From the IMG/VR virus record IMGVR_UViG_2917875804_000002, positions 1-34,470 of that record: a stretch of 34,470 nt of DNA. The stretch is one strand, 5' to 3'. The position numbers and the translations under genes are program-made. This document shows, piece by piece, positions 14,188-31,948 of this stretch. A model generated the notes under the pieces. It searched no databases and was not told the DNA's origin. It saw only the letters and a program-made list of their open reading frames with translations. Source of the DNA: a virus. Lineage: Duplodnaviria > Heunggongvirae > Uroviricota > Caudoviricetes. Numbering within the stretch: the stretch's first letter is position 1; every line of letters starts with the position of its first letter.

Positions 14188-14203
14188 TGGAGCACAAAAC
14201 CTG

Positions 14204-15262: not shown

Positions 15263-15265
15263 CCC

Positions 15266-16679: not shown

Positions 16680-16682
16680 ATT

Positions 16683-17391: not shown

Positions 17392-17392
17392 A

Positions 17393-17770
17393 ATGAAAAA
17401 GAAATTAATCAGCGGACTGTTTCTGATGTTCTGGATGGCGCTGTTGATCGCAGCAATGGTGTATCCGCAGGGGATTTTTCCGGTACTGGCAGCGTCCGGT
17501 GTCTGGGTAGCCTGTCTGCTGACATGGGCGGTAATTCCGGTAGCACTGGCTGCGTTAATTAAGAACGGCCCGTTCTGGCAGGAGTTGAGGGCATTTTTGC
17601 TAAAGACCATTACCCGAAAAGAAAACGTATTTATCAGCTGGGTGATGCGATTGCTGATTGTCGTCAGTTTCGCCTGGACGGGGTGGGCCATTACCCTGGT
17701 CTTTTATCTGCTGACCGTTATTGCCTTCCGGATCACCCGTAACCAGATGGCGCAACAGGTAGCAGCATGA
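17393..17770 (+). CDS. lysA: LysA-like integral membrane lysis-timing protein
   Basis: 125 aa, four hydrophobic helices, RBS-free tight coupling after lysozyme. Confidence 0.55.
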   Translation: MKKKLISGLFLMFWMALLIAAMVYPQGIFPVLAASGVWVACLLTWAVIPVALAALIKNGPFWQELRAFLLKTITRKENVFISWVMRLLIVVSFAWTGWAITLVFYLLTVIAFRITRNQMAQQVAA

Positions 17771-18195
17771 ACCGGTTGCTGCTGGTTGTGCTGGCGTTAT
17801 TACTGGCGGCGCTGGGCTGGCAGACGTGGCGGCTGGCTGATGCCAGCCAGACCATCAGCACGCAGGCAGACGAGCTGCAGAGCAAAAGCCAGGCACTGGC
17901 AAAGAGCAACAGCCAGCTTATCAGCCTGTCCATTCTGACTGAAACCAACAACCGGGAGCAGGCGCGGCTCTATGCCGAAGCAGAACAGACCAGCGCGCTG
18001 CTGAGTCAACGACAACACCGGATCGAGGAACTGAAACGTGAGAACGAGGATTTACGCCGCTGGGCTGATACTCCTTTGCCTGCTGACATTATCCGGCTGC
18101 GGAAACGCCCGGCATTCACCGGAGGTGCAGCTTACCGTCAGTGGCTGTCCGCGAGTGACGCCGTGTCGGCTGGATCAGACAGCGCCGCACACTAA
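17767..18195 (+). CDS. lysB: LysB, Rz-like inner-membrane spanin
   Basis: N-terminal TM segment LLLVVLALLLAALGW, coiled-coil-like middle, position. Confidence 0.7.
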   Translation: MNRLLLVVLALLLAALGWQTWRLADASQTISTQADELQSKSQALAKSNSQLISLSILTETNNREQARLYAEAEQTSALLSQRQHRIEELKRENEDLRRWADTPLPADIIRLRKRPAFTGGAAYRQWLSASDAVSAGSDSAAH

Positions 18196-18328
18196 CGGTG
18201 ATCTGAACGCGTTGCTGGATGAAACGGAGGCCGCCTGGGCGGTCTGTGCAGACAAAGTGGACATGATTATTGCGTGTCAGGAGCGAAATAGTGAACAAAC
18301 CACAATCCCTGCGCCACGCCCTCAATAA
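18038..18328 (+). CDS. lysC: LysC, Rz1-like outer-membrane lipoprotein spanin (overlaps lysB in another frame)
   Basis: Lipobox LTLSGC after hydrophobic signal; embedded/overlapping arrangement typical of Rz/Rz1. Confidence 0.55.
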   Translation: MRTRIYAAGLILLCLLTLSGCGNARHSPEVQLTVSGCPRVTPCRLDQTAPHTNGDLNALLDETEAAWAVCADKVDMIIACQERNSEQTTIPAPRPQ

Positions 18329-18722
18329 AGCAGTGCCTTATGTCCGCAATAACCCGGACAAACTGCATCTGTTTGTGGATAACGGTTCGCTGGTTGCCAC
18401 GGGGGCCAGCTCCATGTCATGGGAGTACCGTTATACCCTCAACGTGGTGATTGAGGATTTCAGCGGCGACCAGAATCTGCTGATGGCCCCAGTTTTGCTG
18501 TGGCTGCGTGATAACCAGCCCGATGCCATCAATAACCCGGCGTTACGGGAAAAACTATTCACCTTTGAGGTGGATATTTTGCGCAACGATGTCTGTGATA
18601 TCAGCCTTAACCTGCAACTGACGGAGCGTGTGCTGGTCAGCACTGACGGCAGTGTGTCGAGTGTTGAAGCTGTAGCGGAACCCGATGAACCTGAAGAAAT
18701 GTGGACGGTGAAACGTGGCTGA
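18291..18722 (+). CDS. R: tail completion protein R
   Basis: GTG 18291 preceded by AGGAG; similarity to P2 R (LHLFVDNGSL..., YRYTLNVV, LNLQLTERVLVS). Confidence 0.8.
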   Translation: MNKPQSLRHALNKAVPYVRNNPDKLHLFVDNGSLVATGASSMSWEYRYTLNVVIEDFSGDQNLLMAPVLLWLRDNQPDAINNPALREKLFTFEVDILRNDVCDISLNLQLTERVLVSTDGSVSSVEAVAEPDEPEEMWTVKRG

Positions 18723-19161
18723 ACTGCAGAAGGTGGACGACTGGCTGAGTGCTTTGCTGGCGAATCTGGAACCAGCCGCAAGAAGCCGCATGATGCGCCA
18801 GCTGGCGCAGGAACTGCGCCGGACACAGCAGCAGAATATCAGAATGCAGCGCAATCCAGATGGCAGCAGTTATGAACCGCGACGGGTAACAGCACGCAGT
18901 AAAAAGGGGCGCATCAAACGTCAGATGTTTACAAAGCTGCGCACCACAAAATACCTGAAAACTGCCGCCAGCGCCGATTCTGCCAGCGTGCAGTTTGAAG
19001 GTAAGGTGCAGCGCATTGCCCGCGTTCACCATTACGGCCTGCGTGATCGCGTCAGTCGTAAAGGGCCGGAGGTCCGCTATGCTGAGCGTCGCCTTCTGGG
19101 TGTAAATGATGATGTTGAGGCAATGACCCGTGACATGATTTTGCAATGGCTGGCGGGGTGA
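18715..19161 (+). CDS. S: tail completion protein S
   Basis: 148-aa ORF, GTG start overlapping R stop; position. Confidence 0.8.
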   Translation: MAELQKVDDWLSALLANLEPAARSRMMRQLAQELRRTQQQNIRMQRNPDGSSYEPRRVTARSKKGRIKRQMFTKLRTTKYLKTAASADSASVQFEGKVQRIARVHHYGLRDRVSRKGPEVRYAERRLLGVNDDVEAMTRDMILQWLAG

Positions 19162-19165
19162 TCTT

Positions 19166-19183
19166 TGTATCAGCACTGATACA
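19166..19183. promoter_or_regulatory. near-palindromic TGT-N12-ACA element upstream of V (candidate late-activator site, or S terminator)
   Basis: TGTATCAGCACTGATACA; fits the TGT-N12-ACA pattern; spacing to V ATG is short so function ambiguous. Confidence 0.35.
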
Positions 19184-19229
19184 AGTTGCAGCACTGCCGC
19201 CTTTCTTCCCCTGATGGCAACCTTTCCCT

Positions 19230-19808
19230 ATGAACGCACAATTAACCGAAATCATGCGCCTTATCACCAACCTGATACGCACAGGTGTAGTCACCGAAGT
19301 GGACAGGGCAAACTGGCTGTGTCGGGTGAAAACGGGCGACCTTGAAACCAACTGGATTAACTGGCTGACACTGCGCGCGGGCAAATCGCGCACCTGGTGG
19401 AAACCGTCTGTGGGCGAGCAGGTTGTGCTGTTCAGCCTGGGTGGCAATCTGGAAACCGCGTTTGCCCTGCCTGCTGTCTACTCAAATCAGTTTCCGCCAC
19501 CTTCAGACTCTGAGGACGGCAACGTGGTTGAGTACCCGGACGGTGGCTGGTTTGAATACGAACCCGCTACCGGGCGCTGGTATGTCAGGGGCATCAAATC
19601 CATGGTCATTGAGGCTGCCGACAACATCACCCTGAAAACCAGTGAGTTTGTACTGGAGGCTGACCGCACACGCATTAACAGTGAAGTGGTGATCAATGGT
19701 GGAGTTACCCAGGGCGGCGGAGCGATGAGTTCTAACGGGATCGTGGTTGATGCGCATCAGCATACTGGCGTCCTGAAAGGCGGCGATACAACCGGAGGCC
19801 CGGTATGA
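19230..19808 (+). CDS. V: baseplate spike/assembly protein V
   Basis: 192-aa ORF at head of baseplate operon. Confidence 0.85.
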   Translation: MNAQLTEIMRLITNLIRTGVVTEVDRANWLCRVKTGDLETNWINWLTLRAGKSRTWWKPSVGEQVVLFSLGGNLETAFALPAVYSNQFPPPSDSEDGNVVEYPDGGWFEYEPATGRWYVRGIKSMVIEAADNITLKTSEFVLEADRTRINSEVVINGGVTQGGGAMSSNGIVVDAHQHTGVLKGGDTTGGPV

Positions 19809-20164
19809 CGCTTTATATTGGGATGAACAATACCAGCGGTAAAGCCATTACTGATATTGACCATCTGCGCCAGTCAGTGCGGGACATTCTGCTGACGCCG
19901 CAGGGTAGCCGCATTGCCCGCCGGGAATATGGTTCCCTGCTGTCGGCACTGATAGACCAGCCACAAAATCCGGCGTTACGCCTGCAGGTCATGTCGGCAG
20001 TGTATGTGGCGCTGAGTCGCTGGGAGCCACGGCTGACGCTGGATTCCATCACCATAAACAGTAATTTTGACGGTTCAATGGTGGTGGAGCTGACCGGGCG
20101 GCGTAATAGCGGTGTGCCTGTTTCCCTTTCCGTATCAACAGGAGCAGAGAATGGCAGTGATTGA
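19805..20164 (+). CDS. W: baseplate protein W (gp25-like)
   Basis: 119 aa, overlaps V stop. Confidence 0.85.
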   Translation: MTLYIGMNNTSGKAITDIDHLRQSVRDILLTPQGSRIARREYGSLLSALIDQPQNPALRLQVMSAVYVALSRWEPRLTLDSITINSNFDGSMVVELTGRRNSGVPVSLSVSTGAENGSD

Positions 20165-21059
20165 CCTTTCGCAGTTACCTGCGCCGCAAATTGTGGATGT
20201 GCCGGACTTTGAGACGCTGCTTGCCGAACGCAAGGCAGAATTTGTGGCGCTTCATCCGAAAGATGAGCAGGAAGCAGTGATGCGTACGCTGGAACTGGAA
20301 TCTGAACCCGTTACCAAATTGTTGCAGGAGAACGCTTACCGTGAGTTGCTTCTGCGCCAGCGCATTAACGAAGCCGCGCAGGCGGTGATGGTGGCTTATG
20401 CCATAGGGAGCGATCTGGACCAGCTCGCTGCCAATTACAACGTGAAACGCCTGACGGTGACGCCTGCTGATAATGACGCTGCACCGCCCGTTGCGGCTGT
20501 GATGGAAAGCGATGAAGCGTTACGCCTGCGTGTGCCTGCAGCCTTTGAGGGGCTTTCAGTTGCGGGGCCAACCGCAGCTTATGAATTTCATGCCCGAAGC
20601 GCCGACGGTCGGGTGGCGGATGCCAGTGCAACCAGTCCGGCACCTGCAGAGGTGGTGCTGACTGTTCTTAGCCGCGAAGGCGATGGAACAGCAGAAAAAG
20701 ACTTGCTGGATGTGGTGGAGAAAGCCCTGAACAGTGAGAACGTCCGCCCGGTGGCTGACCGTCTGACGGTTCGCAGCGCAGAAATCATCCCGTACCGCGT
20801 GGAAGCCACCATTTTTCTCTATCCGGGACCGGAAGCAGAGCCGGTAATGGCAGCGGCAAAAGCCAGTCTGCAGAAGTACATCGCCAGTCAGACGCGTCTT
20901 GGCCGGGATATTCGCCGTAGCGCCATCTTTGCCGCCCTGCATGTTGAGGGTGTGCAGCGTGTGGAGCTGGCTTCGCCGCTGGCGGATGTGGTCCTGAACA
21001 AAACACAGGCGGCATCATGTACGCAGTGGAGCGTAACCAACGGAGGAACGGATGAATAG
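20151..21059 (+). CDS. J: baseplate protein J
   Basis: ATG 20151 with GGAG RBS; about 302 aa. Confidence 0.85.
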   Translation: MAVIDLSQLPAPQIVDVPDFETLLAERKAEFVALHPKDEQEAVMRTLELESEPVTKLLQENAYRELLLRQRINEAAQAVMVAYAIGSDLDQLAANYNVKRLTVTPADNDAAPPVAAVMESDEALRLRVPAAFEGLSVAGPTAAYEFHARSADGRVADASATSPAPAEVVLTVLSREGDGTAEKDLLDVVEKALNSENVRPVADRLTVRSAEIIPYRVEATIFLYPGPEAEPVMAAAKASLQKYIASQTRLGRDIRRSAIFAALHVEGVQRVELASPLADVVLNKTQAASCTQWSVTNGGTDE

Positions 21060-21657
21060 TCTGCTGCCACCGGGTTCAACTTCACTGGAGCGCCGACTGG
21101 CGCAAACCTGCAGCGGGATTTCTGATTTGCAGGTGCCGCTGCGTGACTTGTGGAATCCAACGACCTGTCCGATCAGTTTCCTGCCTTATCTCGCCTGGGC
21201 GTTCTCTGTGGATCGCTGGGACGAGGGCTGGACAGAAAGCGTCAAGCGCCAGGTAGTGAAGGATGCTTTTTATATTCATCAGCATAAAGGAACCACCAGT
21301 GCCGTGCGGCGGGTGGTGGAGCCGTTCGGCTTCCTGATCCGCATTATTGAGTGGTGGCAGACCGGAGAGACACCGGGCACGTTTCGCCTGGACATCGGCG
21401 TGCAGGATCAGGGCATCACTGAAGATACCTATTTAGAACTTGAGCGGCTAATAAGCGATGCCAAACCATGTAGCCGTCACATGATCGGCATGTCCATCAA
21501 TCTGCAGACCAGCGGTCCGCATTGGGTGGGGGCCGCCAGCTATCTTGGCGAAGAAATCACGATCTATCCGTATATCAACGAAACAATTATTTCTGGCGGC
21601 ACCGCGCATGAAGGCGGGGCGGTCCATGTTATTGACATAATGAGAGTGAATCCATGA
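21052..21657 (+). CDS. I: baseplate/tail protein I
   Basis: 201 aa, overlapping J stop and H start. Confidence 0.85.
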   Translation: MNSLLPPGSTSLERRLAQTCSGISDLQVPLRDLWNPTTCPISFLPYLAWAFSVDRWDEGWTESVKRQVVKDAFYIHQHKGTTSAVRRVVEPFGFLIRIIEWWQTGETPGTFRLDIGVQDQGITEDTYLELERLISDAKPCSRHMIGMSINLQTSGPHWVGAASYLGEEITIYPYINETIISGGTAHEGGAVHVIDIMRVNP

Positions 21658-23080
21658 GCACAAAATTTTATACCCTGCTGACGGATATTGGCGCGGCGAA
21701 ACTTGCCAGCGCCGCCGCGCTCGGTGTGCCTTTAAAAATTACCCATATGGCGGTCGGCGATGGCGGCGGAACATTGCCAACGCCGGACGCAAAGCAGACT
21801 GCACTGGTAAATGAGAAACGCCGGGCTGCGCTGAATATGCTCTATATCGACCCGCAGAACAGCAGTCAGATTATTGCTGAACAGGTGATCCCTGAAAACG
21901 AGGGTGGTTGGTGGATACGTGAAGTGGGCCTGTTTGATGAGTCAGGGGCATTGATTGCCGTGGGAAACTGCCCGGAAAGCTATAAGCCGCAACTAGCTGA
22001 AGGCAGCGGGCGCACCCAGACCGTGCGCATGGTGCTGATTACCAGCAGTACCGATAATATCACACTGAAAATTGACCCTTCAGTGGTGCTGGCAACCCGC
22101 AAGTATGTGGATGACAAGGTGCTTGAGCTTAAGGTGTATGTGGATGACCTGATGGCAAAGCATCTTGCTGCTGCAGATCCTCATACGCAGTATGCGCCCA
22201 AAGACAGCCCAACATTGACTGGCACGCCGAAAACGCCAACAGCACCGGCGGGAACTAACACGACTCAGATTGCTAGCACGGCATTTGTGCAGGCGGTGGT
22301 CACTGCGCTAAATAACGCACTGGCGTTGAAAGCTCCACTGGCAAATCCGGCCCTGACCGGAACGCCGACGGCTCCGACTGCAGCGCAGACGGCGAACAAT
22401 ACGCAGATTGCCACCACGGCATTTGTGAAAGCGGCAGTTGCGAGATGGTCGGTTCATCGCCGGAGGCGCTGGATACGTTAAATGAATTGGCTGCTGCGCT
22501 GGGGAATGATCCTAACTTTGCGACAACAGTAATGAGTGCGCTGGCGGGAAAAATGAACAAAGCAGCTAATGGCGCTGATATTGCCGATGTTTCTGCTTTT
22601 CTAAAAAACCTTCATCTTGGGGAGGGCAGTGCGTTGCCAGTCGGTGTTCCTGTTCCGTGGCCTACTGCAATACCGCCGGAAGGTTGGTTGAAGTGTAATG
22701 GAGCATCATTCAGTTCCTCGCAATATCCGAAACTGGCGCAGGTTTATCCGTCATTAAAATTACCAGATCTACGCAGTGAGTTTATTCGCGGCTGGGACGA
22801 TGGGCGTGGCGTAGACGCTGGACGTCAGGTTCTAACGTCTCAGACTGATGCTATGCAGCCGATTATCGGCTCCATTGGCTATGGTACAAACGGTATGTTT
22901 ACTTATGCTGATGGAGCTTTTACGGGTATAGATCGTGAAAGCGGAGACGGTATTGTTACACAGGCAACAAGCATCTCACAATATAAACAGGCTCACTTAG
23001 ATTCAATTACGATAACACGAACAGCGGCAGAAACACGTCCACGGAATATTTCATTTAATTACATTGTGAGAGCAGCATAA
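21654..23080 (+). CDS. H: tail fibre protein H; frame broken by 1-nt deletion near 22440-22445
   Basis: ORFs 21654..22481 and 22445..23080; conserved N-terminal MSTKFYTLLTDIGAAKLA and AFVKAAVA...VGSSPEALDTLNELAAALGNDPNF collar motif split across frames. Confidence 0.75.
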
Positions 23081-23676
23081 TGACAGAAGCGAAACTAAAT
23101 AATGAGTTTATAGCTGTGGAATCTGGCAATATAACGGTGTTTAACTTTGATATTGAAACTCGTGAATATCTTTCTTCTAGTGTTGAATTTCTTGCTGTAG
23201 GGGTTGGGATTCCTGCTAATTCATGCATTGATATGCCGGGTAAAAGTAAAAAAGGGTTAACCATTTGCCGGACTAAGGATCTTACCGCGTGGGAATATAT
23301 TGCTGATCATCGAGGTGAGACTGTTTACAGCACCGAAACTGGCAAAAAAATAGCTGTAACAGTGCTCGGCGATTACCCAGAAAAAACTACGAAACTACCT
23401 CCTGCTACACCATACGATAAGTGGAACGGTAGTGCATGGGTGACAGATACCGAGGTGCAGCACGAGGTTGACGTGGAAACTGCTGATCAGAAGAAAGCGG
23501 AGCTTCTGGCAAAGGCTCAGCTAACAATCAATCTATGGCAGACAGAACTACAATTAGGAATTATCAGTGATGAAGATAAAGTCAGACTAATCACCTGGAT
23601 GAATTACATCAAAGCGGTGCAGTTGGTAGACACGTCAACTGCGCCAGATATAACGTGGCCGAGGAAGCCCGAGTGA
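23080..23676 (+). CDS. G: tail fibre assembly protein (gpG/Tfa-like chaperone)
   Basis: 198 aa immediately after H, start overlaps H stop. Confidence 0.75.
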   Translation: MTEAKLNNEFIAVESGNITVFNFDIETREYLSSSVEFLAVGVGIPANSCIDMPGKSKKGLTICRTKDLTAWEYIADHRGETVYSTETGKKIAVTVLGDYPEKTTKLPPATPYDKWNGSAWVTDTEVQHEVDVETADQKKAELLAKAQLTINLWQTELQLGIISDEDKVRLITWMNYIKAVQLVDTSTAPDITWPRKPE

Positions 23677-23700
23677 CTGAGAATTAAATGGTTAGTATCA

Positions 23701-23742
23701 TCCTCCCCCACACTGCCTATATGGTATGAATACGAGGGGGAG
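23701..23742. terminator. hairpin (CCTCCCCC ... GGGGGAGG) followed by T-rich tract after tail-fibre operon
   Basis: 8-bp GC-rich arms with long loop, then CTGTTTGTTGTCTGTTTCTGTG. Confidence 0.3.
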
Positions 23743-23802
23743 GCTGTTTGTTGTCTGTTTCTGTGATAATATTAGATTCTCGTTTTTTAATAAAAAATCA
23801 AT

Positions 23803-24813
23803 ATGAAAGAGAATAAAATACGTTCTGCCGATGGCGTGAGAGGTTTCGCTTTGATGATTGTTGTGGTGATGCATGCTACGGGACTATTCTTTCCCTCACT
23901 TCATGATCATCTCGGAGGTACGGGGCAGCCCGGTGTTTGGTTGTTTTTTGTTCTTAGCGCCTTTTTGTTGACACATAAATTTATTAATTCTGGTTTTTCG
24001 TTTTTGAATGTGTTGAGTTATCTTTTAGGGCGAACAATAAGGATATTACCGATTTTTTATATTGCAGTATTAATTTATTACCTTATGGGATTTTATGATT
24101 TAGAGAAAATGAAATCGATAATTTCATTTGATAGTACTTACATCCATTTCTGGACTATTCCGATAGAATTCAAGTTTTACTTTTTGTTGCCGATTGTGGT
24201 TTATCTCGCATCTAGTATCCAGAAAGTTGCAGGTAGAAAATATTCTTTGTTGTTTTTGATATTGTTAACCTTAGCGTTCGCTTTTATATACCCTTATACG
24301 GATGACGAAATCAACGGTAGGCTACCGTATTACATTCCTGTTTTTATGTATGGAATTATAATTGCGTTTATGTATAACTATTTTCAAATTAAAATATCAT
24401 CTCTCGTTAGTGATGGGGTGTCAATTGCGATTATATTAATATTTATAATGTTGACCCCTCCTTTTCAGGGGGCTAATGGTTGGCTGGGTAATAAATTTGT
24501 GGTATTAGGGCCATTTATTGCTCTCTTTGTATATTTGCAAGTAAATTCCAGTGGGTATGTAAGCGCGGTTTTATCTTCAAAAATCATGGCGGATTTGGGG
24601 AAATATAGTTTTTCAATTTATTTGTTTCATATAATGATAATTTTTATTGTTTATCCTAAATTTTTGGATAATGTTACTGCATACTTAGTTACTATAGCTT
24701 TATGTATTGGCGGTGGGGCTATTGCCTATCATTGCATTGAATCTCCCTTGGAATCGTTCAGACATAAGCTTATGAAAAGAATAACGCAGGCTTATCAGAA
24801 TCAAAATATTTAA
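23803..24813 (+). CDS. acyltransferase family 3 integral membrane protein (OafA/Oac-like O-acetyltransferase), cargo at Z/fun-equivalent locus
   Basis: 336 aa, about 10 hydrophobic segments, N-terminal RGFALMIVVVMH (conserved His in first TM), very AT-rich, own upstream region. Confidence 0.75.
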   Translation: MKENKIRSADGVRGFALMIVVVMHATGLFFPSLHDHLGGTGQPGVWLFFVLSAFLLTHKFINSGFSFLNVLSYLLGRTIRILPIFYIAVLIYYLMGFYDLEKMKSIISFDSTYIHFWTIPIEFKFYFLLPIVVYLASSIQKVAGRKYSLLFLILLTLAFAFIYPYTDDEINGRLPYYIPVFMYGIIIAFMYNYFQIKISSLVSDGVSIAIILIFIMLTPPFQGANGWLGNKFVVLGPFIALFVYLQVNSSGYVSAVLSSKIMADLGKYSFSIYLFHIMIIFIVYPKFLDNVTAYLVTIALCIGGGAIAYHCIESPLESFRHKLMKRITQAYQNQNI

Positions 24814-24825
24814 GTAAAAGCAAAA

Positions 24826-24854
24826 AAGGCTCTCGTCAACCGACGAAGCCTTTT
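24826..24854. terminator. imperfect hairpin plus T-run downstream of acyltransferase
   Basis: AAGGCTCTCGTC-AACC-GACGAAGCC followed by TTTT. Confidence 0.35.
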
Positions 24855-24947
24855 AAAACGAGTATTAATTCCCGTCCTGTAAAGTGCCCCCTATCCCAGA
24901 ACAACGTTTTTAGTTATCAACGCCGTTCCGAAAATTTCCTGCGACGT

Positions 24948-24965
24948 TGTGTGATTAACCGTACA
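24948..24965. promoter_or_regulatory. candidate Ogr/B-type late activator site (TGT-N12-ACA) for the FI-FII-E-T-U-D operon
   Basis: TGTGTGATTAACCGTACA, 77-94 nt upstream of FI ATG. Confidence 0.45.
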
Positions 24966-25041
24966 ACGCACATCAGCTGTCTGCATGGCGTAATCAATAC
25001 AACATAGGGCGAAGCCTAAACCAATCAGGAGGTTCGCCACT

Positions 25042-26215
25042 ATGGCTCAGGATTACCACCACGGGGTGCGCGTTGTTGAAGTCAACGAAGGCACCCGATC
25101 TATTACCACGGTGAGCACCGCCATCGTGGGCATGGTCTGCACGGGCGATGATGCCGATGCAAAAAATGTTTCCTCTTAATAAACCCGTGCTGATCACTGA
25201 TGTACTGACCGCCAGCGGTAAAGCGGGTGAGTCCGGCACGCTGGCCCGTTCGCTGGATGCCATCGCTGACCAGGCAAAACCCGTGACCGTTGTTGTGCGT
25301 GTGCCACAGGGTGAAACGGAAGAAGAAACCACAACCAATATCATTGGCGCAGTGACCGCCGAGGGTAAAAAAACAGGCATGAAAGCCCTGTTATCTGCCC
25401 AGACACAGCTCGGCGTTAAACCGCGCATTCTCGGCGTGCCAGGTCACGATAACAAAGCCGTTGCTACTGAGTTGCTGAGTGTGGCGCAAAGCCTGCGTGG
25501 GTTTGCCTACCTGTCAGCGTATGGCTGCAAGACGGTACAGGAGGCGATCACTTACCGTGAAAATTTCAGCCAGCGCGAAGGAATGCTGATCTGGCCTGAC
25601 TTTACTGGCTGGGACACGGTGCTGAATGCCGAAGCAACGGCATATGCCACCGCCCGTGCGCTTGGTCTGCGTGCCAAAATTGATGAGCAGACCGGGTGGC
25701 ACAAAAGCCTGTCCAACGTGGGCGTGAACGGTGTCACCGGAATTTCTGCAGATGTGTTCTGGGATCTGCAGGACCCGGCAACCGATGCAGGTCTGCTGAA
25801 CCAGAACGACGTCACCACGCTTGTGCGTAAAGACGGTTTCCGCTTCTGGGGTTCTCGCTGCCTGAGTGATGACCCGCTCTTTGCCTTCGAAAACTACACC
25901 CGCACGGCGCAGGTGCTGACGGACACAATGGCAGAAGCGCACATGTGGGCAGTGGACAAACCGCTGAACCCGTCGCTGGCGCGCGACATTATCGAGGGCA
26001 TCCGCGCCAAAATGCGCAGCCTGGTCAGTCAGGGGTATCTCATTGGTGGTGATTGCTGGCTGGACGAGTCGGTGAACGACAAAGACACGCTGAAAGCCGG
26101 AAAACTCACCATCGACTATGACTACACGCCAGTGCCGCCACTTGAAAATCTGATGCTGCGTCAGCGCATCACCGATCAGTACCTGGTGAATTTTGCCAGC
26201 CAGGTCAGCGCGTAA
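25042..26215 (+). CDS. FI: tail sheath protein FI; frame broken in A6 run 25160-25165
   Basis: ATG 25042 with GGAGG RBS gives [34 protein letters not shown] then frame switches to ORF 25148..26215 ([13 protein letters not shown]...), both parts closely parallel to P2 FI. Confidence 0.85.
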
Positions 26216-26224
26216 GGGGACAAC

Positions 26225-26740
26225 ATGGCTTTACCACGCAAATTAAAACATCTGAACCTGTTTAACGACGGGAACAACTGGCAGGGGATCGTAGAGTCTC
26301 TGACGCTGCCGAAATTCACCCGCAAATATGAGAAGTATCGCGGCGGCGGAATGCCGGGTGCAGTGGATGTGGATCTGGGGCTTGATGACAGTGCTCTGGA
26401 CACAGAATTTTCCATTGGTGGTACTGAACTGCTGCTGTTTAAACAGATGGGCAAAGCCACGGTGGATGGCATCCAGTTGCGCTTTACCGGCTCTATCCAG
26501 CGTGATGATACCGGGGAAGTACAGGCCGTGGAGCTTGTGGTGCGTGGACGTCACAAAGAAGTGGACTCCGGCGAGTGGAAGACGGGCGAAAGCAACACCA
26601 CCAAAGTGACCAGTACCAACAGTTACGCGAAGCTGACTATCAATGGTGAGGTGCTCTATGAAGTGGACCTTATCAACATGGTGGAAATTGTGGACGGTGT
26701 GGACCTGATGGAAGCGCACCGCAACGCCCTCGGCCTCTGA
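26225..26740 (+). CDS. FII: tail tube protein FII
   Basis: 171-aa ORF following sheath. Confidence 0.9.
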   Translation: MALPRKLKHLNLFNDGNNWQGIVESLTLPKFTRKYEKYRGGGMPGAVDVDLGLDDSALDTEFSIGGTELLLFKQMGKATVDGIQLRFTGSIQRDDTGEVQAVELVVRGRHKEVDSGEWKTGESNTTKVTSTNSYAKLTINGEVLYEVDLINMVEIVDGVDLMEAHRNALGL

Positions 26741-26751
26741 TGTATCTGAAC

Positions 26752-26769
26752 GGCGCGGAATGCCGCGCC
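26752..26769. other. GC-rich stem-loop between FII and E (GGCGCGG-AATG-CCGCGCC)
   Basis: 7-bp perfect GC stem, 4-nt loop, weak U tract; possible attenuator or RNA stability element. Confidence 0.3.
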
Positions 26770-26794
26770 AGAACCCAATTTACAGGACAGAAAA

Positions 26795-27097
26795 ATGAGT
26801 GATAAGCAGACTGAAAAGACCATTCAACTGGATACTCCCATCATGCGCGGTAAAACAGAAATTACCGAAATTGTGTTGCGTAAACCGCAGTCCGGTGCGC
26901 TGCGCGGCACACGCCTGCAGGCCATTATGGATATGGATGTGAACGCGATGATGACCGTGATCCCCCGCATCTCCAGTCCGGCACTGACTGCACAGGAAAT
27001 TGCAGAGCTGGACCCGGCAGATCTCACTGCCATGTCGGTTGAGGTTGTCACTTTTTTGTTGAAGAAGTCGGTGCTTGCCGGTTTACCGACAGCCTGA
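26795..27097 (+). CDS. E: tail assembly chaperone E
   Basis: 100-aa ORF before tape measure gene. Confidence 0.8.
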   Translation: MSDKQTEKTIQLDTPIMRGKTEITEIVLRKPQSGALRGTRLQAIMDMDVNAMMTVIPRISSPALTAQEIAELDPADLTAMSVEVVTFLLKKSVLAGLPTA

Positions 27098-27231
27098 CGG
27101 TTGACGATCTGGTGGCTGATATCGCCACCATCTTTCACTGGCCGCCATCCGTTACTGACGTTATGCCGCTGACCGAAGTGCTGGAATGGCGGTATAAAGC
27201 GATTCAGAGAAGCGGGGCCAGCCATGAGTGA
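26795..27231 (+). CDS. E+E' extended tail chaperone made by programmed -1 translational frameshift
   Basis: Slippery heptamer T_TTT_TTG in zero frame at 27052-27058; -1 frame stays open to TGA 27229-27231 overlapping the T start ATGAGTGA. Confidence 0.6.
27052..27058 (+). other. slippery sequence TTTTTTG for E/E' -1 frameshift
   Basis: X_XXY_YYZ heptamer in frame with E, about 40 nt before E stop. Confidence 0.6.
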
Positions 27232-30200
27232 CAATAACCTGCGTCTGCAGGTGATTCTGAATGCGGTTGACAAGCTCACCCGCCCATTTCGATCCGCGCA
27301 GGCCAGTTCAAGAGAACTGGCTGCTGCTGTCAAACAATCCCGCGATGCAATAAAGCAGCTTGATCAGGCCGGGAGCAGTCTGGACAGCTTCCGAAAGCTG
27401 CAGGCAGAAAATCAGAAATTAGGCGACAGGCTGAACTATGCCCGCCAGCGTGCAAATTTACTCAGTCATGAACTGGGATCAATGGGGCCGCCTTCGCAAC
27501 GTCAGGTTGTTGCTCTGGGCCGTCAACGGCTGGCTGTTCAGCGCCTGGAAGAACGCCAGAAAAAGCTGCAGCAGCAGACGGCGCTTGTGCGTGCAGAACT
27601 TTATCGTGCTGGTATTTCAGCTAATGATGGCGCCAGTGCGACGGCCCGCATTACCCGTGAAACGATGCGTTATAACAGGCAGCTTTCTGAGCAGGAAGCG
27701 AGGTTACGACGTGTCGGGGAGCAACAGCGAAAAATGCACGCCGCCCGGGGGGCTTACGCCAGGCGTCTTGAGGTAAGGGATCGTATTGCCGGGGCCGGAG
27801 CCACTACCACGACTGCAGGGCTGGCAATGGGCGCACCAGTGATGGCGGCAGTAAAAAGCTATACCAGCATGGAAGATGCCATGAAAGGTGTGGCAAAGCA
27901 GGTCAATGGTCTGCGTGACGATAATGGCAACCGCACTGCACGTTTTTATGAAATGCAGGATGCCATCAAGGCTGCCAGCGAACAGCTGCCGATGGAAAAC
28001 GGTGCGGTGGACTTCGCTGCACTGGTTGAAGGTGGGGCGCGCATGAACGTCGCAAACCCTGACGACAGCTGGGAAGACCAGAAACGTGATCTGCTGGCCT
28101 TCGCCAGCACGGCAGCAAAGGCGGCAACAGCCTTTGAGCTGCCAGCGGATGAACTGTCAGAAAGTCTGGGAAAAATCGCCCAGCTCTACAAAATCCCTAC
28201 CCGCAATATTGAACAGCTCGGTGATGCGCTGAACTATCTGGATGATAACGCCATGTCGAAAGGGGCAGACATCATTGATGTCATGCAACGCCTGGGCGGT
28301 GTGGCTGATCGTCTGGATTATCGTAAAGCGGCGGCGCTGGGTTCCACCTTCCTGACACTGGGTGCTGCGCCGGAGGTTGCAGCCAGTGCAGCAAACGCGA
28401 TGGTGCGTGAATTGTCCATTGCCACCATGCAAAGCAAGAGTTTCTTTGAAGGAATGAATCTGCTGAAACTCAATCCTGAAGTGATTGAAAAGCAGATGAC
28501 GAAGGATGCGATGGGAACTATCCAGCGCGTACTGGAGAAGGTGAATGCACTGCCGCAGGATAAACGTCTGTCTGCCATGACCATGTTGTTTGGTAAAGAG
28601 TTTGGCGATGACGCGGCGAAACTGGCAAACAACCTGCCGGAACTGCAGCGCCAGCTAAAACTGACAGCGGGCAATGATGCGCTCGGCTCCATGCAGAAAG
28701 AATCTGACATTAACAAGGACTCACTTTCTGCGCAGTGGTTGCTGGTCAAAACCGGAGCGCAGAACACCTTCAGCAGCCTGGGCGAAACGCTGCGCCAGCC
28801 GCTGATGGATATTCTGTACACGGTGAAAAGCGTCACGGGGGCGTTGCGCCGCTGGGTGGAAGCTAACCCGGAACTGACGGGCACACTGATGAAAGTAGCG
28901 GCTGTTGTGGCTGCGGTTACCGTAGGCCTCGGCACCTTAGCGGTGGCGCTGGCTGCAGTGCTGGGGCCGCTGGCAGTGATCCGTCTGGGATTCTCTGTGC
29001 TGGGTATCAAAACGTTACCTTCCGTTACGGCAGCAGTAACCCGAACCAGCAGCGCGTTGTCCTGGCTGGCTGGCGCACCACTGGCACTGCTGCGACGCGG
29101 GCTTGCTTCATCGGGCAACGCAGCGGGTTTACTTACTGCGCCGTTGTCGTCTTTGCGTCGCACGGCATCACTGACGGGGAATGTCCTGAAAACTGTAGCA
29201 GGTGCGCCGGTTGCACTTTTGCGGTCTGGATTATCCGGTTTACGTGCTGTTGCTGTGATGTTTATGAATCCACTGGCAGCACTACGCGGTGGGCTGGCTG
29301 CCGCAGGCGCGGTGCTGCGTGTGCTCGCATCCGGCCCGCTGGCGATGTTGCGCATTGCCCTGTATGCCGTATCTGGTCTGTTAGGTGCTCTGCTCAGTCC
29401 GATAGGTCTTGTGGTTACTGCACTGGCGGGCGTGGCGCTGGTTGTCTGGAAATACTGGCAACCCATCACCGCATTTCTCGGTGGCGTGGTGGAAGGATTC
29501 AAAGCGGCGGCAGGTCCCATCAGTGAAGCATTCGAACCACTTAAGCCTGTGTTTCAGTGGATTGGCGACAAAGTGCAGGCGTTGTGGGGCTGGTTTACTG
29601 ATCTGCTGACGCCCGTTAAGTCGACCTCTGCCGAACTGCAGAGCGCAGCGGCAATGGGGCGACGATTCGGGGAGGCACTGGCGGAAGGGCTGAATATGGT
29701 CATGCATCCGCTGGACTCCCTGAAATCCGGCGTTTCCTGGTTGCTGGAGAAACTCGGCATTGTCAGTAAAGAGGCCGCAAAGGCAAAACTACCGGAAAGC
29801 GTGACGCGTCAGCAACCTGCGACGGTGAATGCAGACGGTAAAGTGATGATGCCATCGGGTGATTTTCCGTCATGGGGATATGGCTTTGCGGGTATGTATG
29901 ACAGCGGCGGCTATATCCCGCGTGGGCAGTTTGGCATCGTCGGTGAAAACGGGCCGGAAATTGTTAACGGCCCGGCAAACGTGACCAGCCGGAGAAATAC
30001 AGCTGCACTGGCTGCCGTTGTCGCCGGAATGATGGGTGTTGCTGCCGCGCCAGCAGAGCTTCCACCGTTGCATCCTTTGGCGCTTCCCGCGAAAGGCGGT
30101 GAAGCGATGGTGAGTCGTGCAGCTACTGTGCCGCCCATTTACCGGATTGAAGCACCGACGCAGATCATCATCCAGACACAGCCAGGACAAAGTGCGCAGG

Positions 30201-30301
30201 ATATTGCGCGGGAGGTGGCCCGCCAGCTTGATGAACGTGAACGCAGGCTGAAGGCAAAAGCCAGGAGTAACTACAGCGATCAGGGGGGATACGACGCATG
30301 A
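27224..30301 (+). CDS. T: tail tape measure protein T
   Basis: 1025-aa ORF, coiled-coil-rich N-terminus and Ala/Gly/Leu-rich hydrophobic middle, position. Confidence 0.9.
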   Translation: MSDNNLRLQVILNAVDKLTRPFRSAQASSRELAAAVKQSRDAIKQLDQAGSSLDSFRKLQAENQKLGDRLNYARQRANLLSHELGSMGPPSQRQVVALGRQRLAVQRLEERQKKLQQQTALVRAELYRAGISANDGASATARITRETMRYNRQLSEQEARLRRVGEQQRKMHAARGAYARRLEVRDRIAGAGATTTTAGLAMGAPVMAAVKSYTSMEDAMKGVAKQVNGLRDDNGNRTARFYEMQDAIKAASEQLPMENGAVDFAALVEGGARMNVANPDDSWEDQKRDLLAFASTAAKAATAFELPADELSESLGKIAQLYKIPTRNIEQLGDALNYLDDNAMSKGADIIDVMQRLGGVADRLDYRKAAALGSTFLTLGAAPEVAASAANAMVRELSIATMQSKSFFEGMNLLKLNPEVIEKQMTKDAMGTIQRVLEKVNALPQDKRLSAMTMLFGKEFGDDAAKLANNLPELQRQLKLTAGNDALGSMQKESDINKDSLSAQWLLVKTGAQNTFSSLGETLRQPLMDILYTVKSVTGALRRWVEANPELTGTLMKVAAVVAAVTVGLGTLAVALAAVLGPLAVIRLGFSVLGIKTLPSVTAAVTRTSSALSWLAGAPLALLRRGLASSGNAAGLLTAPLSSLRRTASLTGNVLKTVAGAPVALLRSGLSGLRAVAVMFMNPLAALRGGLAAAGAVLRVLASGPLAMLRIALYAVSGLLGALLSPIGLVVTALAGVALVVWKYWQPITAFLGGVVEGFKAAAGPISEAFEPLKPVFQWIGDKVQALWGWFTDLLTPVKSTSAELQSAAAMGRRFGEALAEGLNMVMHPLDSLKSGVSWLLEKLGIVSKEAAKAKLPESVTRQQPATVNADGKVMMPSGDFPSWGYGFAGMYDSGGYIPRGQFGIVGENGPEIVNGPANVTSRRNTAALAAVVAGMMGVAAAPAELPPLHPLALPAKGGEAMVSRAATVPPIYRIEAPTQIIIQTQPGQSAQDIAREVARQLDERERRLKAKARSNYSDQGGYDA

Positions 30302-30783
30302 TGATGGTGCTGGGATTGTACGTGTTTATGCTGCGCACCGTGCCGTATCAGGAACTGCAGTATCAACGCAGCTGGCGACATGCGGCTAACAGCCGGGTAA
30401 ATCGTCGTCCGTCCACGCAGTTTCTGGGACCGGACAACGACATGCTGACGCTTTCCGGTGTTCTTATGCCGGAGATAACAGGCGGCAGGCTGTCGTTGCT
30501 GGCACTTGAGCAGATGGCAGAACAGGGGAAAGCATGGCCCCTGATTGAAGGTAGCGGCACGATTTACGGCATGTATGTGATTGAGGGACTGAATCAGACT
30601 AAAACGGAGTTTTTCCGCGACGGTATGCCGCGCCGGATTGAGTTCACCCTGTCGCTCAAACGGGTGGATGAATCCCTGTCCGATATGTTCGGTGATCTCA
30701 GTGCGCAACTGAATAATCTGCAGGGAACGGCAACATCTGCCTTAAGCGATATCAGTAAAACGGTGGGAGGGCTTCTGTCGTGA
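30298..30783 (+). CDS. U: tail protein U
   Basis: 161 aa, start overlaps T stop. Confidence 0.85.
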   Translation: MMMVLGLYVFMLRTVPYQELQYQRSWRHAANSRVNRRPSTQFLGPDNDMLTLSGVLMPEITGGRLSLLALEQMAEQGKAWPLIEGSGTIYGMYVIEGLNQTKTEFFRDGMPRRIEFTLSLKRVDESLSDMFGDLSAQLNNLQGTATSALSDISKTVGGLLS

Positions 30784-31880
30784 ATTTCAGCTCTGAACTG
30801 CTTAACAAAGGCAACAAAACTCCGGCATTCAGCATCAGTATTGAAGGCAGGGATATCACCACTGTGCTGGACAACCGCCTGATGGGGCTGACGCTGACGG
30901 ATAACCGGGGATTTGAAGCGGACCAGCTTGATCTGGAGCTTGACGACGCCGATGGAAAAATCGTGCTGCCGCGCCGTGGTGCGGTCATTACGCTGGCGCT
31001 GGGCTGGAAGGGGCAGCCGCTTTTCCCGAAAGGGGCATTCACGGTGGACGAGATTGAACACACTGGCGCACCGGACCGCCTGACTATCCGGGCGCGAAGT
31101 GCTGATTTTCGTGAAACGCTGAATACCCGCCGTGAAAAGTCGTGGCACAAGACCACCGTTGGGGAAGTGGTGAAGGAAATAGCTGCGCGGCACAAACTGA
31201 AGATGGCACTGGGTAAAGACCTGTCAGATAAACCCGTGGAACATATAGACCAGACCAATGAGAGTGACGGCAGTTTTCTGATGCGGTTGGCGCGCCAGTA
31301 CGGTGCTATTGCGTCGGTGAAAAATGGCAATCTGTTATTCATCCGACAGGGACAGGGTAAAAGCGCCAGCGGTAAACCACTACCGGTGATCACTATCACA
31401 CGCAAGGACGGCGACAGTCACCGCTTTACCCTAGCAGATCGCGGAGCCTATACGGGCGTAATTGCCAGTTGGTTGCATACCCGCGAACCCGTGAAGAAAG
31501 AAAGCACCACGGTGAAGCGTAAGCGCAGGACCGCAAAGCAGAAGAAAGAGCCGGAAGCGAAGCTGGGCGATTACCTGGTGGGTACGGATGAAAACGTGCT
31601 GGTACTTAATCGCACTTATGCCAACCGGAGCAACGCTGAACGGGCAGCGAAAATGCAGTGGCAACGCCTGCAACGCGGCGTTGCGTCATTCTCGCTACAA
31701 CTGGCGGAAGGGCGGGCGGATCTCTACACGGAAATGCCTGTGAAGGTCAGTGGCTTTAAACAGCCAATAGATGATGCGGAATGGACCATTACCACCCTGA
31801 CGCATAATGTCAGCCCGGATAACGGTTTTACGACCAGTATTGAACTTGAAGTGAAAATTGATGATCTTGAAATGGAATAA
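30780..31880 (+). CDS. D: tail protein D (late control gene D)
   Basis: 366 aa, GTG start overlapping U stop. Confidence 0.85.
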   Translation: MNFSSELLNKGNKTPAFSISIEGRDITTVLDNRLMGLTLTDNRGFEADQLDLELDDADGKIVLPRRGAVITLALGWKGQPLFPKGAFTVDEIEHTGAPDRLTIRARSADFRETLNTRREKSWHKTTVGEVVKEIAARHKLKMALGKDLSDKPVEHIDQTNESDGSFLMRLARQYGAIASVKNGNLLFIRQGQGKSASGKPLPVITITRKDGDSHRFTLADRGAYTGVIASWLHTREPVKKESTTVKRKRRTAKQKKEPEAKLGDYLVGTDENVLVLNRTYANRSNAERAAKMQWQRLQRGVASFSLQLAEGRADLYTEMPVKVSGFKQPIDDAEWTITTLTHNVSPDNGFTTSIELEVKIDDLEME

Positions 31881-31948
31881 ATGGTTCTCAATATTGATAT
31901 TTTGTGTATCATTGCATTGATTCTGATAGCAAAGGTAGGGATCTGGAT

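What the first reader, a model, noticed from the sequence alone, without database searches (positions are those of the whole stretch)
23677..24870. Membrane acyltransferase-3 (OafA/Oac-like) cargo at the Z/fun-equivalent hotspot between tail-fibre assembly gene and sheath late promoter
Seen in sequence: a 336-aa polytopic membrane protein with the acyltransferase-3 N-terminal signature sits in a very AT-rich block with its own upstream region and downstream hairpin. It is inserted exactly between G (end 23676) and the TGT-N12-ACA late-promoter element of FI (24948). Established knowledge: this family includes O-antigen and peptidoglycan O-acetylases used by temperate phages for serotype conversion and superinfection exclusion, and the G-FI junction is a known variable locus in P2-like phages. 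Inference: a lysogenic-conversion or receptor-masking gene.
Basis: partly seen in the sequence, partly recalled or inferred. Interest (0 to 1): 0.45.

Follow-up and report, generated by a model that had tools for sequence, protein, structure and literature searches.

The report
Prophage-borne membrane sugar acyltransferase gene
A P2-type prophage of a non-coli Escherichia carries, between its tail-fibre and tail-sheath genes, a self-contained AT-rich gene for a membrane acyltransferase that most likely acetylates a cell-surface sugar of the lysogen; this is an ordinary kind of phage cargo, with a published precedent (neaT) at the same site.

Summary
ORF 23803-24813 (+) encodes a 336-aa, ten-helix Acyl_transf_3 (AT3-only) protein. 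It matches PF01757 at E 2e-26, has the catalytic motifs and a confident AlphaFold model, and is 34% GC in a 51% GC window. It lies between the tail-fibre assembly gene G and the Ogr-type late promoter of sheath gene FI.

It is a classic moron. An extended -10 element is conserved in seven diverged loci, it has its own terminator, and dN/dS is 0.06-0.11.

The idea is not new. Wiles et al. 2013 described neaT, an AT3 gene at this same "moron position 2" in E. coli CFT073 prophage phi-b0847. The window's backbone is 96-100% identical in protein to that phage. Its AT3 gene, however, is unrelated to neaT by BLAST and points the other way, so it is a second, independent AT3 lineage at this hotspot.

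Relatives of the gene (41-97% identity) always lie directly downstream of a tail-fibre/chaperone or tailspike gene. This holds in P2-like, P22-like, epsilon15-like and other prophages. In four backbones the fibre tip, chaperone and AT3 diverge together.

Surface-glycan O-acetylation that converts the lysogen or masks a receptor is the best-supported mechanism. The acceptor sugar is unknown and nothing has been tested. Verdict: a new member of a known kind, of modest interest.

The parts
22297..23080 (+). 3' part of tail-fibre gene H (receptor-binding tip, Collar domain). This is the left part of the mosaic block that differs from the phi-b0847 and 500465-1 backbones and co-travels with the AT3 gene. 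The reading frame is broken at 22440 by a 1-nt homopolymer deletion.
   Evidence: Backbone identity of 94-96% stops at 22296. The tip is 95/87/67/72% identical in L002/L007/L105/L104, in step with TAP and AT3. Pfam Collar. The indel is CC to C relative to L002/L097/L098.
23080..23676 (+). Gene G: tail-fibre assembly chaperone (TAP), 198 aa.
   Evidence: Pfam Caudo_TAP, E 2.8e-33. The same 198-aa type sits directly upstream of the AT3 gene in L002, L007, L104 and L105 at 90/74/71/71% identity. A 3' fragment of it remains fused upstream of the AT3 gene in L006.
23701..23743 (+). Hairpin CCTCCCCC...GGGGGAGG followed by a T-rich tract. It may be the terminator or insulator that ends the late V-to-G transcript. 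Evidence is weak.
   Evidence: The arms are conserved in window/L002/L006 and co-vary in L007 (CCTCCTC...GGAGGAGG). The folding energy in the window is no better than shuffles (z = -0.28).
23764..23772 (+). Extended -10 promoter-like element TGATAATAT (TG-n-TAnnnT), about 31 nt upstream of the ATG. There is no good -35.
   Evidence: TG-n-TA-n-n-n-T is retained in all seven cassette-bearing loci, down to 61% protein identity, where the rest of the spacer no longer aligns (alignment A4). Promoter function is inferred, not shown.
23803..24813 (+). AT3-only (Acyl_transf_3) membrane acyltransferase, 336 aa.
   Evidence: Identity. Motifs: R13-X10-H24, V45WLFFVLSAF54 and R77TIR80. Invariant in 26 subfamily members: H24, R77, R80, H115, W117, T118, E122, S269, S271, Y273, H276, E313, R320. 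dN/dS is 0.06-0.11.
24824..24854 (+). Intrinsic-terminator-like hairpin (AAAAAAGGCUCUCGUC-AACC-GACGAAGCCUUUU) that ends the cassette.
   Evidence: dG -16.5 kcal/mol, z = -5.15. Compensatory substitutions in L006 and L007. The distant cassettes L103 and L104 have non-homologous GC hairpins with T runs at the same place.
24948..24965 (+). TGT-N12-ACA dyad, the Ogr/Delta activator site of the P2-type late promoter for FI. This is backbone sequence, not cargo.
   Evidence: Read directly. It is conserved in L002, L006, L007 and in phage 500465-1, which has no AT3 gene. Homology to 500465-1 resumes at 24947. The role of the dyad is established knowledge of P2 late promoters.
25042..26215 (+). Tail sheath gene FI, the right-hand neighbour. 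The frame is broken at about 25161 by an extra A in an A run.
   Evidence: Pfam sheath domains. A5 to A6 relative to L097/L098. tblastn shows a frame change at codon 41.

Best explanation
The block is a phage 'moron': a self-contained, horizontally acquired gene in the G/FI variable site of a P2-like prophage, which is integrated next to ssrA in a cryptic-clade Escherichia.

The gene encodes a stand-alone AT3 acyltransferase with ten transmembrane helices. By analogy with characterised AT3 enzymes, it binds cytoplasmic acyl-CoA (probably acetyl-CoA) through the R-X10-H and RxxR motifs. It then passes the acyl group through a membrane pore onto a hydroxyl of a sugar on the periplasmic face. The most likely acceptor is an undecaprenyl-linked or nascent LPS O-antigen or a related surface glycan.

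It is probably transcribed in the lysogen from its own extended -10 promoter, independently of Ogr-driven late transcription, and stops at its own terminator.

The expected consequence is a chemically altered cell surface (lysogenic conversion). This would reduce adsorption of phages that use that glycan, possibly including phages with the co-inherited fibre tip, and could change antigenicity.

Shown here: family membership, fold, motifs, moron anatomy, purifying selection, and repeated linkage to receptor-binding-protein genes.

Inferred: the donor, the acceptor, expression in the lysogen and the phenotype.
For: - Family and fold: PF01757 E 2.2e-26 over the full length. PHROG 'O-acetyltransferase' E 4.8e-42. 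The AlphaFold2 model has pLDDT 89.5. The only convincing hit among solved structures is human HGSNAT (prob 1.0, TMq 0.51), which PMC12423673 places in one fold with AT3 (abstract).
- Motifs named as essential in the review PMC9558356 are present and invariant across 26 relatives.
- Moron anatomy: 34% GC against 51%, an extended -10 conserved in seven diverged loci, and a terminator with z = -5.15 and compensatory changes.
- Function is maintained: dN/dS is 0.06-0.11 and the ORF is intact in all seven loci. It is also intact in a decayed prophage remnant (L007).
- Context: the 97/90/79% homologues lie at the same G/FI site. The 70/71/61% homologues lie directly after fibre and TAP genes in other phage types. 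The 41-44% homologues lie directly after the tailspike in P22-like prophages and in an epsilon15/phiV10-like prophage. These are the slots of the proven converting genes Sf6 oac and phiV10 oac.
- Fibre tip, TAP and AT3 diverge in step in four backbones.
- Precedent at the same site: neaT.
Against: - There is no experimental datum for this protein or for any close relative.
- It is only 23% identical to Sf6 OacA over about half its length, and BLAST finds no similarity to phiV10 Oac or NeaT. Function is therefore transferred at family level only, and AT3 acceptors are very diverse.
- NCBIfam and PADLOC give no specific assignment.
- The RBP-AT3 match is not strict. An identical AT3 pairs with tailspikes that are only 41% identical, and L006 and L103 kept the AT3 gene after a fibre swap.
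- The promoter has no -35 or Shine-Dalgarno sequence and rests on conservation alone.
- In phage Kapi1, over-expression of an acyltransferase gene lying between the tailspike and integrase genes did not appear to reproduce the phage's LPS change. The passage read is cut off at that point, and that gene's relation to this protein was not tested.
- The studied AT3 at this hotspot, NeaT, was linked to virulence and aggregation, and its target is unknown.
Confidence: 0.6

Rival explanations
1. NeaT-like host-fitness factor. The enzyme modifies a surface glycan, but the selected benefit is altered aggregation, immune or phagocyte evasion, or niche fitness of the bacterium, not protection against phages.
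For: NeaT is an AT3 gene at the identical moron site of a prophage whose backbone is 96-100% identical in protein to the window's. It is needed for bloodstream fitness and alters aggregation and phagocyte interaction. The AT3 gene is kept intact in a dead prophage remnant (L007) and after fibre swaps (L006, L103). This fits a benefit that does not depend on the phage's own receptor.
Against: The window protein is not related to NeaT beyond family level (E 0.035-0.43). Its subfamily is tightly linked to receptor-binding-protein genes in at least five phage architectures. The two readings do not exclude each other.
Confidence: 0.25
2. The acceptor is not O-antigen but another envelope glycan: enterobacterial common antigen (WecH-like), periplasmic glucans (OpgC-like succinylation), LPS core, capsule or colanic acid, or peptidoglycan.
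For: Stand-alone AT3 enzymes act on all of these classes (review PMC9558356). P2-type fibres typically bind LPS core rather than O-antigen (my own knowledge). A 60% homologue in Ewingella is chromosomal with no phage genes beside it. One database record labels a cluster member 'OatA', but that is an automatic name.
Against: No NCBIfam equivalog model is hit. The characterised peptidoglycan O-acetylase OatA needs a fused SGNH domain, which is absent here. Every phage-borne AT3 named in the review acts on O-antigen. The homologues in P22-like phages sit beside tailspikes, which typically target O-antigen.
Confidence: 0.2
3. Silent or hitch-hiking cargo. The gene is carried along with the fibre-tip/chaperone module by recombination and is not expressed or not useful, for example because it is silenced as AT-rich foreign DNA.
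For: It is very AT-rich. Its linkage to H and G could be simple physical adjacency. There is no canonical -35 or Shine-Dalgarno sequence.
Against: dN/dS is 0.06-0.11 with saturated dS, and the ORF is intact in seven diverged loci. The catalytic motifs are invariant. The promoter element and terminators are conserved. The gene is retained when the fibre genes were replaced.
Confidence: 0.05

Closest known systems
NeaT (c0970) of E. coli CFT073 prophage phi-b0847 (Wiles et al. 2013, PMC3573123)
   Same: It is a PF01757 stand-alone acyltransferase of about 340 aa and about 30-34% GC. It lies as a single-gene moron between G and FI ('moron position 2') of a P2-like prophage. The two phage backbones are 94-96% identical in DNA and 96-100% in protein.
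   Different: There is no significant pairwise similarity (BLASTP E 0.035-0.43). neaT is on the opposite strand. The neighbouring fibre tip and G differ (30-56% identity over partial alignments). NeaT is nearer to phiV10 Oac (22%, E 6e-12), while the window protein is nearer to Sf6 OacA. This is therefore an independent acquisition, not an orthologue.
OacA of Shigella phage Sf6 (O-antigen rhamnose 2-O-acetylase; blocks the Sf6 tailspike)
   Same: It is an AT3-only protein of about 333 aa with the R-X10-H, FFxxS and RxxR motifs. It is phage-borne with its own promoter and terminator next to the receptor-binding protein gene. Homologues of the window protein at 41-44% identity occupy that same tailspike-int slot in P22-like prophages.
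   Different: It is only 23% identical over about 190-230 residues (E about 1e-4). The phage type and site differ. The acceptor of the window enzyme is unknown.
Oac of E. coli O157 phage phiV10 (O-antigen acetylation, superinfection immunity)
   Same: It is an AT3-only moron between the tail-fibre gene and the next operon. A 44% homologue of the window protein (P0010) occupies that same tail-fibre-to-lysis slot in an epsilon15/phiV10-like prophage.
   Different: BLAST detects no similarity to the window protein.
P2 Z/fun (the cargo at the G/FI site of phage P2 itself)
   Same: It occupies the same variable locus between G and FI, and it is a prophage-expressed gene that affects other phages (T5 exclusion). 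This is established knowledge, not tested here.
   Different: It is an unrelated protein. It is not an acyltransferase.

Membership tests
Acyltransferase-3 (AT3, PF01757 / IPR002656) | Significant full-length match to the Acyl_transf_3 profile | tested here: met
   E 2.2e-26, 93.1 bits (cut-off 31), covering residues 8-308 and profile positions 3-324 of 326.
Acyltransferase-3 (AT3, PF01757 / IPR002656) | About ten transmembrane helices; the TmAT fold shared with HGSNAT | tested here: met
   The AlphaFold2 model (pLDDT 89.5, pTM 0.89) has ten long hydrophobic helices. In the Foldseek search of PDB the only hits with probability 1.0 were human HGSNAT chains; the best was 8vli_B, TMq 0.51. No AT3 sequence relative is in the PDB.
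Acyltransferase-3 (AT3, PF01757 / IPR002656) | R/K-X10-H motif in TM1 (essential in OafA/OafB) | tested here: met
   R13-X10-H24. H24 is invariant and R13 is at least 90% conserved in 26 relatives.
Acyltransferase-3 (AT3, PF01757 / IPR002656) | V-x-x-F-F-x-[IVL]-S-G-[FWY] motif (the Ser is essential in Lag-1) | tested here: met
   V45-W-L-F-F-V-L-S-A-F54. All positions fit except G to A, and the Ser is invariant.
Acyltransferase-3 (AT3, PF01757 / IPR002656) | RxxR motif in the first cytoplasmic loop (essential in OacA) | tested here: met
   R77-T-I-R80, with both Arg invariant.
AT3-SGNH fused O-acetylases (OafA, OafB/GtrC, OatA) | C-terminal periplasmic SGNH domain plus an 11th TM helix | tested here: not met
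   The protein ends at residue 336, just after helix 10. Pfam finds no second domain. It is an AT3-only protein, so 'OafA-like' is right only at family level.
Phage O-antigen O-acetylases (Oac of Sf6, phiV10, SfII and others) | Demonstrated O-acetylation of the host O-antigen, with serotype conversion or superinfection exclusion | not testable with these tools
   This needs NMR or mass spectrometry of LPS and adsorption assays.
Phage O-antigen O-acetylases (Oac of Sf6, phiV10, SfII and others) | Sequence orthology to a characterised Oac | tested here: not met
   23% identity to OacA over about half the length; BLAST finds nothing against phiV10 Oac.
NeaT (nomadically evolved acyltransferase) | Sequence relationship to CFT073 c0970 | tested here: not met
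   BLASTP E 0.035-0.43 over 43-58 residues.
NeaT (nomadically evolved acyltransferase) | AT-rich PF01757 moron at P2 'moron position 2' (G/FI) | tested here: met
   The same site is used, on a near-identical backbone.
Phage moron (promoter-gene-terminator unit inserted between operons) | Own promoter and terminator, atypical composition, and absence from close relatives | tested here: met
   The extended -10 is conserved in seven loci. Terminator. GC is 34% against 51%. The gene is absent from 500465-1 and phi-b0847. Promoter activity itself was not tested.

The most novel reading that the evidence does not exclude
Fibre tip, fibre chaperone and AT3 gene form one portable 'adsorption specificity plus receptor masking' cassette that moves between unrelated temperate phage types (P2-like, other myovirus-type prophages, and an inverted-tail-module phage). 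On this reading the AT3 acetylates the very glycan that the co-inherited fibre tip recognises. A phage that acquires the cassette would gain, in one recombination event, a new host range and self-exclusion on that host. Two unrelated AT3 lineages (this one and neaT) at the same hotspot of near-identical backbones would then reflect repeated selection for that pairing.
Probability: 0.3. Interest if true: 0.55.

Novelty: new member of a known kind. Interest (0 to 1): 0.33.

Why it matters
Phage-borne surface-sugar acetylases change serotype, vaccine epitopes and phage susceptibility. They matter for serotyping, for choosing therapeutic phages and for understanding how prophages compete.

This case adds three points.
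- The P2 G/FI hotspot has been filled at least twice by unrelated AT3 genes on almost the same phage backbone.
- This AT3 subfamily is found next to receptor-binding-protein genes in many phage types.
- It often co-diverges with the fibre tip and chaperone, which gives a testable link between what a phage binds and what its lysogen masks.

The acceptor sugar is unknown. The gene is rare: it was absent from 5,426 complete E. coli genomes by megablast, although relatives at 90% identity or more occur in some E. coli, cryptic Escherichia and Citrobacter freundii.

Tried and rejected
- Megablast of the cargo DNA against the phage and complete E. coli collections found no match.
It returned only relatives at 34% identity or less in unrelated bacteria, so it gave no context information.
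- NCBIfam and PADLOC gave no hit for the AT3 protein.
- A profile search of PDB sequences gave no hit.
- Rfam on 23500-25100 gave only sub-threshold noise.
- Orthology to NeaT, Sf6 OacA and phiV10 Oac was rejected.
- The 356-aa gene call in L002 was rejected as the true start. It comes from a 1-nt spacer indel, and the ATG at 23803 is the conserved start in all loci.
- Prophage decay as the cause of the split H and FI genes was rejected. Each checked break lies at or beside a homopolymer run (four sites), and chromosomal smpB carries one too.
- The upstream hairpin is not supported as a strong structure, because its energy is no better than shuffles.
- A strict one-to-one RBP-AT3 match was rejected.
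- The P2 hotspot defence surveys (PMC9122126 and the 2026 bioRxiv preprint) do not mention acyltransferases.
Full report
**Observation**

The ORF is real. It runs from 23803 to 24813 on the + strand, starts with ATG and encodes 336 aa.

It matches Pfam Acyl_transf_3 (PF01757) over its whole length, with E 2.2e-26 and 93 bits against a cut-off of 31. It also matches PHROG 3333 'O-acetyltransferase' at E 4.8e-42.

The ORF is 33.8% GC. The window is 50.9% GC and the flanking tail genes are 53-60%.

Gene G (Caudo_TAP) ends at 23676. The TGT-N12-ACA dyad lies at 24948-24965 and is conserved in relatives, including a phage without the cargo.

The 3' hairpin at 24824-24854 is a strong terminator-like structure. 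Its dG is -16.5 kcal/mol, z is -5.15, and none of 200 shuffles folded as well. Relatives carry compensatory substitutions in it.

**What the protein is**

An AlphaFold2 model built from a 26-sequence alignment is confident, with pLDDT 89.5 and pTM 0.89, and shows ten long hydrophobic helices.

Among solved structures the only convincing fold match is human HGSNAT, with probability 1.0 and TMq 0.51. A 2025 paper (PMC12423673; abstract seen) unifies HGSNAT with AT3 proteins in one 'TmAT' fold. No AT3 sequence relative is in the PDB.

The review of AT3 proteins (PMC9558356) lists three motifs as essential, and all are present:
- R13-X10-H24.
- V45WLFFVLSAF54, which has Ala in place of the usual Gly.
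- R77-T-I-R80.

H24, R77, R80, H115, W117, T118, E122, S269, S271, Y273, H276, E313 and R320 are invariant in 26 subfamily members.

The protein ends straight after helix 10 and has no SGNH domain. It is therefore an 'AT3-only' enzyme like Oac, WbaK or Lag-1, not an OafA/OatA-type fusion.

**Anatomy of the cassette**

I aligned the spacer between the chaperone stop codon and the AT3 start in seven loci, whose AT3 proteins range from 97% to 61% identity to the window's. One block survives where everything else has diverged: TG-n-TA-n-n-n-T, an extended -10. In the window it is TGATAATAT at 23764-23772, about 31 nt before the conserved ATG. There is no good -35 and no Shine-Dalgarno sequence, so promoter function is inferred from conservation only.

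Every cassette ends in a hairpin with a T run, and in the distant loci that hairpin is non-homologous.

An upstream hairpin at 23701-23743 has co-varying arms in L007, but its folding energy is no better than shuffles. I give it little weight.

The 356-aa gene call in a 97% relative is an artefact of a 1-nt spacer indel. The ATG at 23803 is the conserved start.

dN/dS against four relatives is 0.06-0.11, and all seven ORFs are intact. This is textbook moron anatomy around a gene under strong purifying selection.

**Phage, host and sequence quality**

The backbone is a P2-like peduovirus. It is about 95% identical in DNA to Escherichia phage 500465-1 and to several Klebsiella prophages.

It is 94-96% identical in DNA, and 96-100% in protein for most structural genes, to prophage phi-b0847 of E. 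coli CFT073.

The prophage abuts the 3' end of the tmRNA gene at 32801-33163. The chromosomal flank (smpB-ratA) is only 90-95% identical to every complete E. coli genome. The exact AT3 protein is deposited as WP_135385637.1 from 'Escherichia sp. E4208 / unclassified Escherichia'. The host is therefore a cryptic-clade Escherichia.

H and FI look split in the window, and so do portal gene Q and chromosomal smpB.
- In H, FI and smpB the break is a 1-nt length difference in a homopolymer run, relative to sequences that are identical or nearly so around the break.
- In portal gene Q the break is a 1-nt difference beside a T run.

These are best read as errors in the source assembly, not as prophage decay.

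**Mosaic structure**

- Against 500465-1, homology breaks at 22296 and resumes at 24947. That phage has an invertible fibre segment and a DNA invertase in the gap.
- Against phi-b0847, homology breaks at 22296 and resumes at 25041.
- Against a more distant P2-like prophage (L002), the block from about 22000 to 25000 is 92-98% identical while the flanks are 74-88%.
- Against IMG/VR prophages L097 and L098, the block 21805-25400 is about 100% identical while the backbone is 88-97%.

The exchanged unit is therefore fibre tip + G + AT3, not the AT3 gene alone.

**Where relatives sit**

| Identity to window AT3 | Locus or protein | Position |
|---|---|---|
| 97%, 90%, 79% | L002-L005, L006, L007/L008 | G/FI site of P2-like prophages; L007 is a decayed remnant in Enterobacter asburiae that lost heads and sheath but kept H'-G-AT3 |
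| 71%, 70%, 61% | L105, L103, L104 | Directly downstream of, and co-oriented with, fibre and chaperone genes in three other phage architectures |
| 41-44% | L009-L012, vB_EcoP-611R6 | Directly after the tailspike and before int in P22-like prophages and in phage vB_EcoP-611R6 |
| 44% | L014-L016 (P0010) | Between tailspike and lysis genes in an epsilon15/phiV10-like prophage |
| 60% | Ewingella | Chromosomal, with no phage genes adjacent |

The P22-like and epsilon15-like positions are the slots of the proven converting genes Sf6 oac and phiV10 oac.

Fibre tip, chaperone and AT3 diverge in step in four backbones:

| Locus | Fibre tip | Chaperone | AT3 |
|---|---|---|---|
| L002 | 95% | 90% | 97% |
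| L007 | 87% | 74% | 79% |
| L105 | 67% | 71% | 71% |
| L104 | 72% | 71% | 61% |

The link is not absolute:
- L006 has a different fibre and chaperone. Upstream of its AT3 gene it carries a scar: a 55-bp duplicate of the FI 5' end fused to the 3' end of a window-type G.
- L103 also has a swapped fibre.
- In P22-like prophages an identical AT3 pairs with tailspikes that are only 41% identical.

**Comparison with what is known**

Wiles et al. 2013 (PMC3573123) described neaT (c0970) in CFT073. [quoted passage not shown] It is needed for fitness in bacteraemia and affects aggregation and phagocyte interaction. Its substrate is unknown.

I fetched that locus. NeaT and the window protein share no significant similarity (BLASTP E 0.035-0.43), and the two genes face opposite ways.

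The window protein is 23% identical to Sf6 OacA over about half its length, and BLAST finds nothing against phiV10 Oac.

So the kind of thing is known, as is an AT3 gene at this very site. This gene is a separate lineage and is uncharacterised. The P2 hotspot defence surveys do not mention acyltransferases.

**Mechanism**

The most likely mechanism is as follows. The enzyme is expressed in the lysogen from its own promoter. It takes acyl-CoA at the cytoplasmic face through R-X10-H and RxxR. It transfers the acyl group to a sugar hydroxyl on the periplasmic face, most probably of O-antigen or another LPS-type glycan. This changes the surface and reduces adsorption of phages that use that glycan.

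- The family and fold steps are shown here.
- The donor, acceptor, expression and phenotype are inferred.

I put the whole statement at about 0.6 and the family assignment alone at above 0.95.

Rivals:
- A NeaT-like host-fitness role, which is not exclusive of the above.
- A non-O-antigen acceptor. Peptidoglycan is unlikely without an SGNH domain.
- Silent hitch-hiking, which purifying selection and the conserved signals argue against.

**Verdict**

This is a new member of a known kind.

The modest added value is twofold: two unrelated AT3 genes occupy the same hotspot on near-identical backbones, and fibre tip, chaperone and AT3 recur together as a module.

Noticed in passing
window ~10699 (portal Q), 22440 (H), 25161 (FI), 33846-33852 (smpB); also the ORF pairs 32194-32421/32402-32677 and 9085-9570/9509-10369: Single-base indels in or beside homopolymer runs break four genes relative to intact relatives: portal Q, H, FI and the conserved chromosomal gene smpB (T7 against T6). 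Two further genes each appear as two overlapping ORFs, and each pair matches successive halves of one profile. The pattern points to homopolymer errors in the source assembly, not to a decaying prophage.
   Followed up: yes
window 2709-8126, 10489-22296 and 25041-32079, against L102 (E. coli CFT073 phi-b0847): The prophage backbone is 94-96% identical in DNA, and 96-100% in protein for most structural genes, to phi-b0847, the phage that carries neaT. The two differ only at the two P2 moron positions and at the fibre tip and G.
   Followed up: yes
window 7865-10369 (between replication gene A and portal Q, 'moron position 1'): This second cargo region holds a GNAT acetyltransferase (8230-8649, - strand), a 120-aa ORF (7865-8227, - strand), and a gene matching the PADLOC candidate defence family PDC-S59. 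In the window that gene is split into 9085-9570 and 9509-10369.
   Followed up: partly
window 32194-32677 (- strand), between ogr and the tmRNA gene: Two overlapping ORFs match successive halves of PHROG 2561 (labelled 'DNA ligase', a 167-position profile). They probably form one small gene at the prophage end, split by a frameshift.
   Followed up: no
window 32801-33163 (- strand); 698-1675 (int); 1-429: The tmRNA gene (ssrA, tag ANDENYALAA) abuts the ogr end of the prophage, while the integrase is at the far left end. The leftmost ORF is dUTPase/dCTP-deaminase-like, so the left flank may be another island rather than core chromosome.
   Followed up: partly
L006 7629-7870 (Silvania sp. MAG prophage): A recombination scar lies upstream of the AT3 gene. 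After a different fibre and chaperone pair comes a 55-bp duplicate of the FI 5' end, 98% identical to window 25044-25098. It is fused to the last ~180 bp of a window-type G. This shows the fibre genes were swapped while the AT3 gene was kept.
   Followed up: partly
L007 and L008 (Enterobacter asburiae): A heavily deleted P2-like remnant (int-CI ... H'-G-AT3 - FI fragment - D-ogr) keeps the fibre fragment, chaperone and AT3 as intact ORFs. The same contig is seen in four samples. This is compatible with retention of the cargo by the host.
   Followed up: no
L103 6950-7978 (protein P0006): The database gene call for this 70% homologue starts too late. A conserved ATG 51 nt upstream restores the MKEQKIRSADGIRGLAL N-terminus with the R-X10-H motif.
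   Followed up: yes
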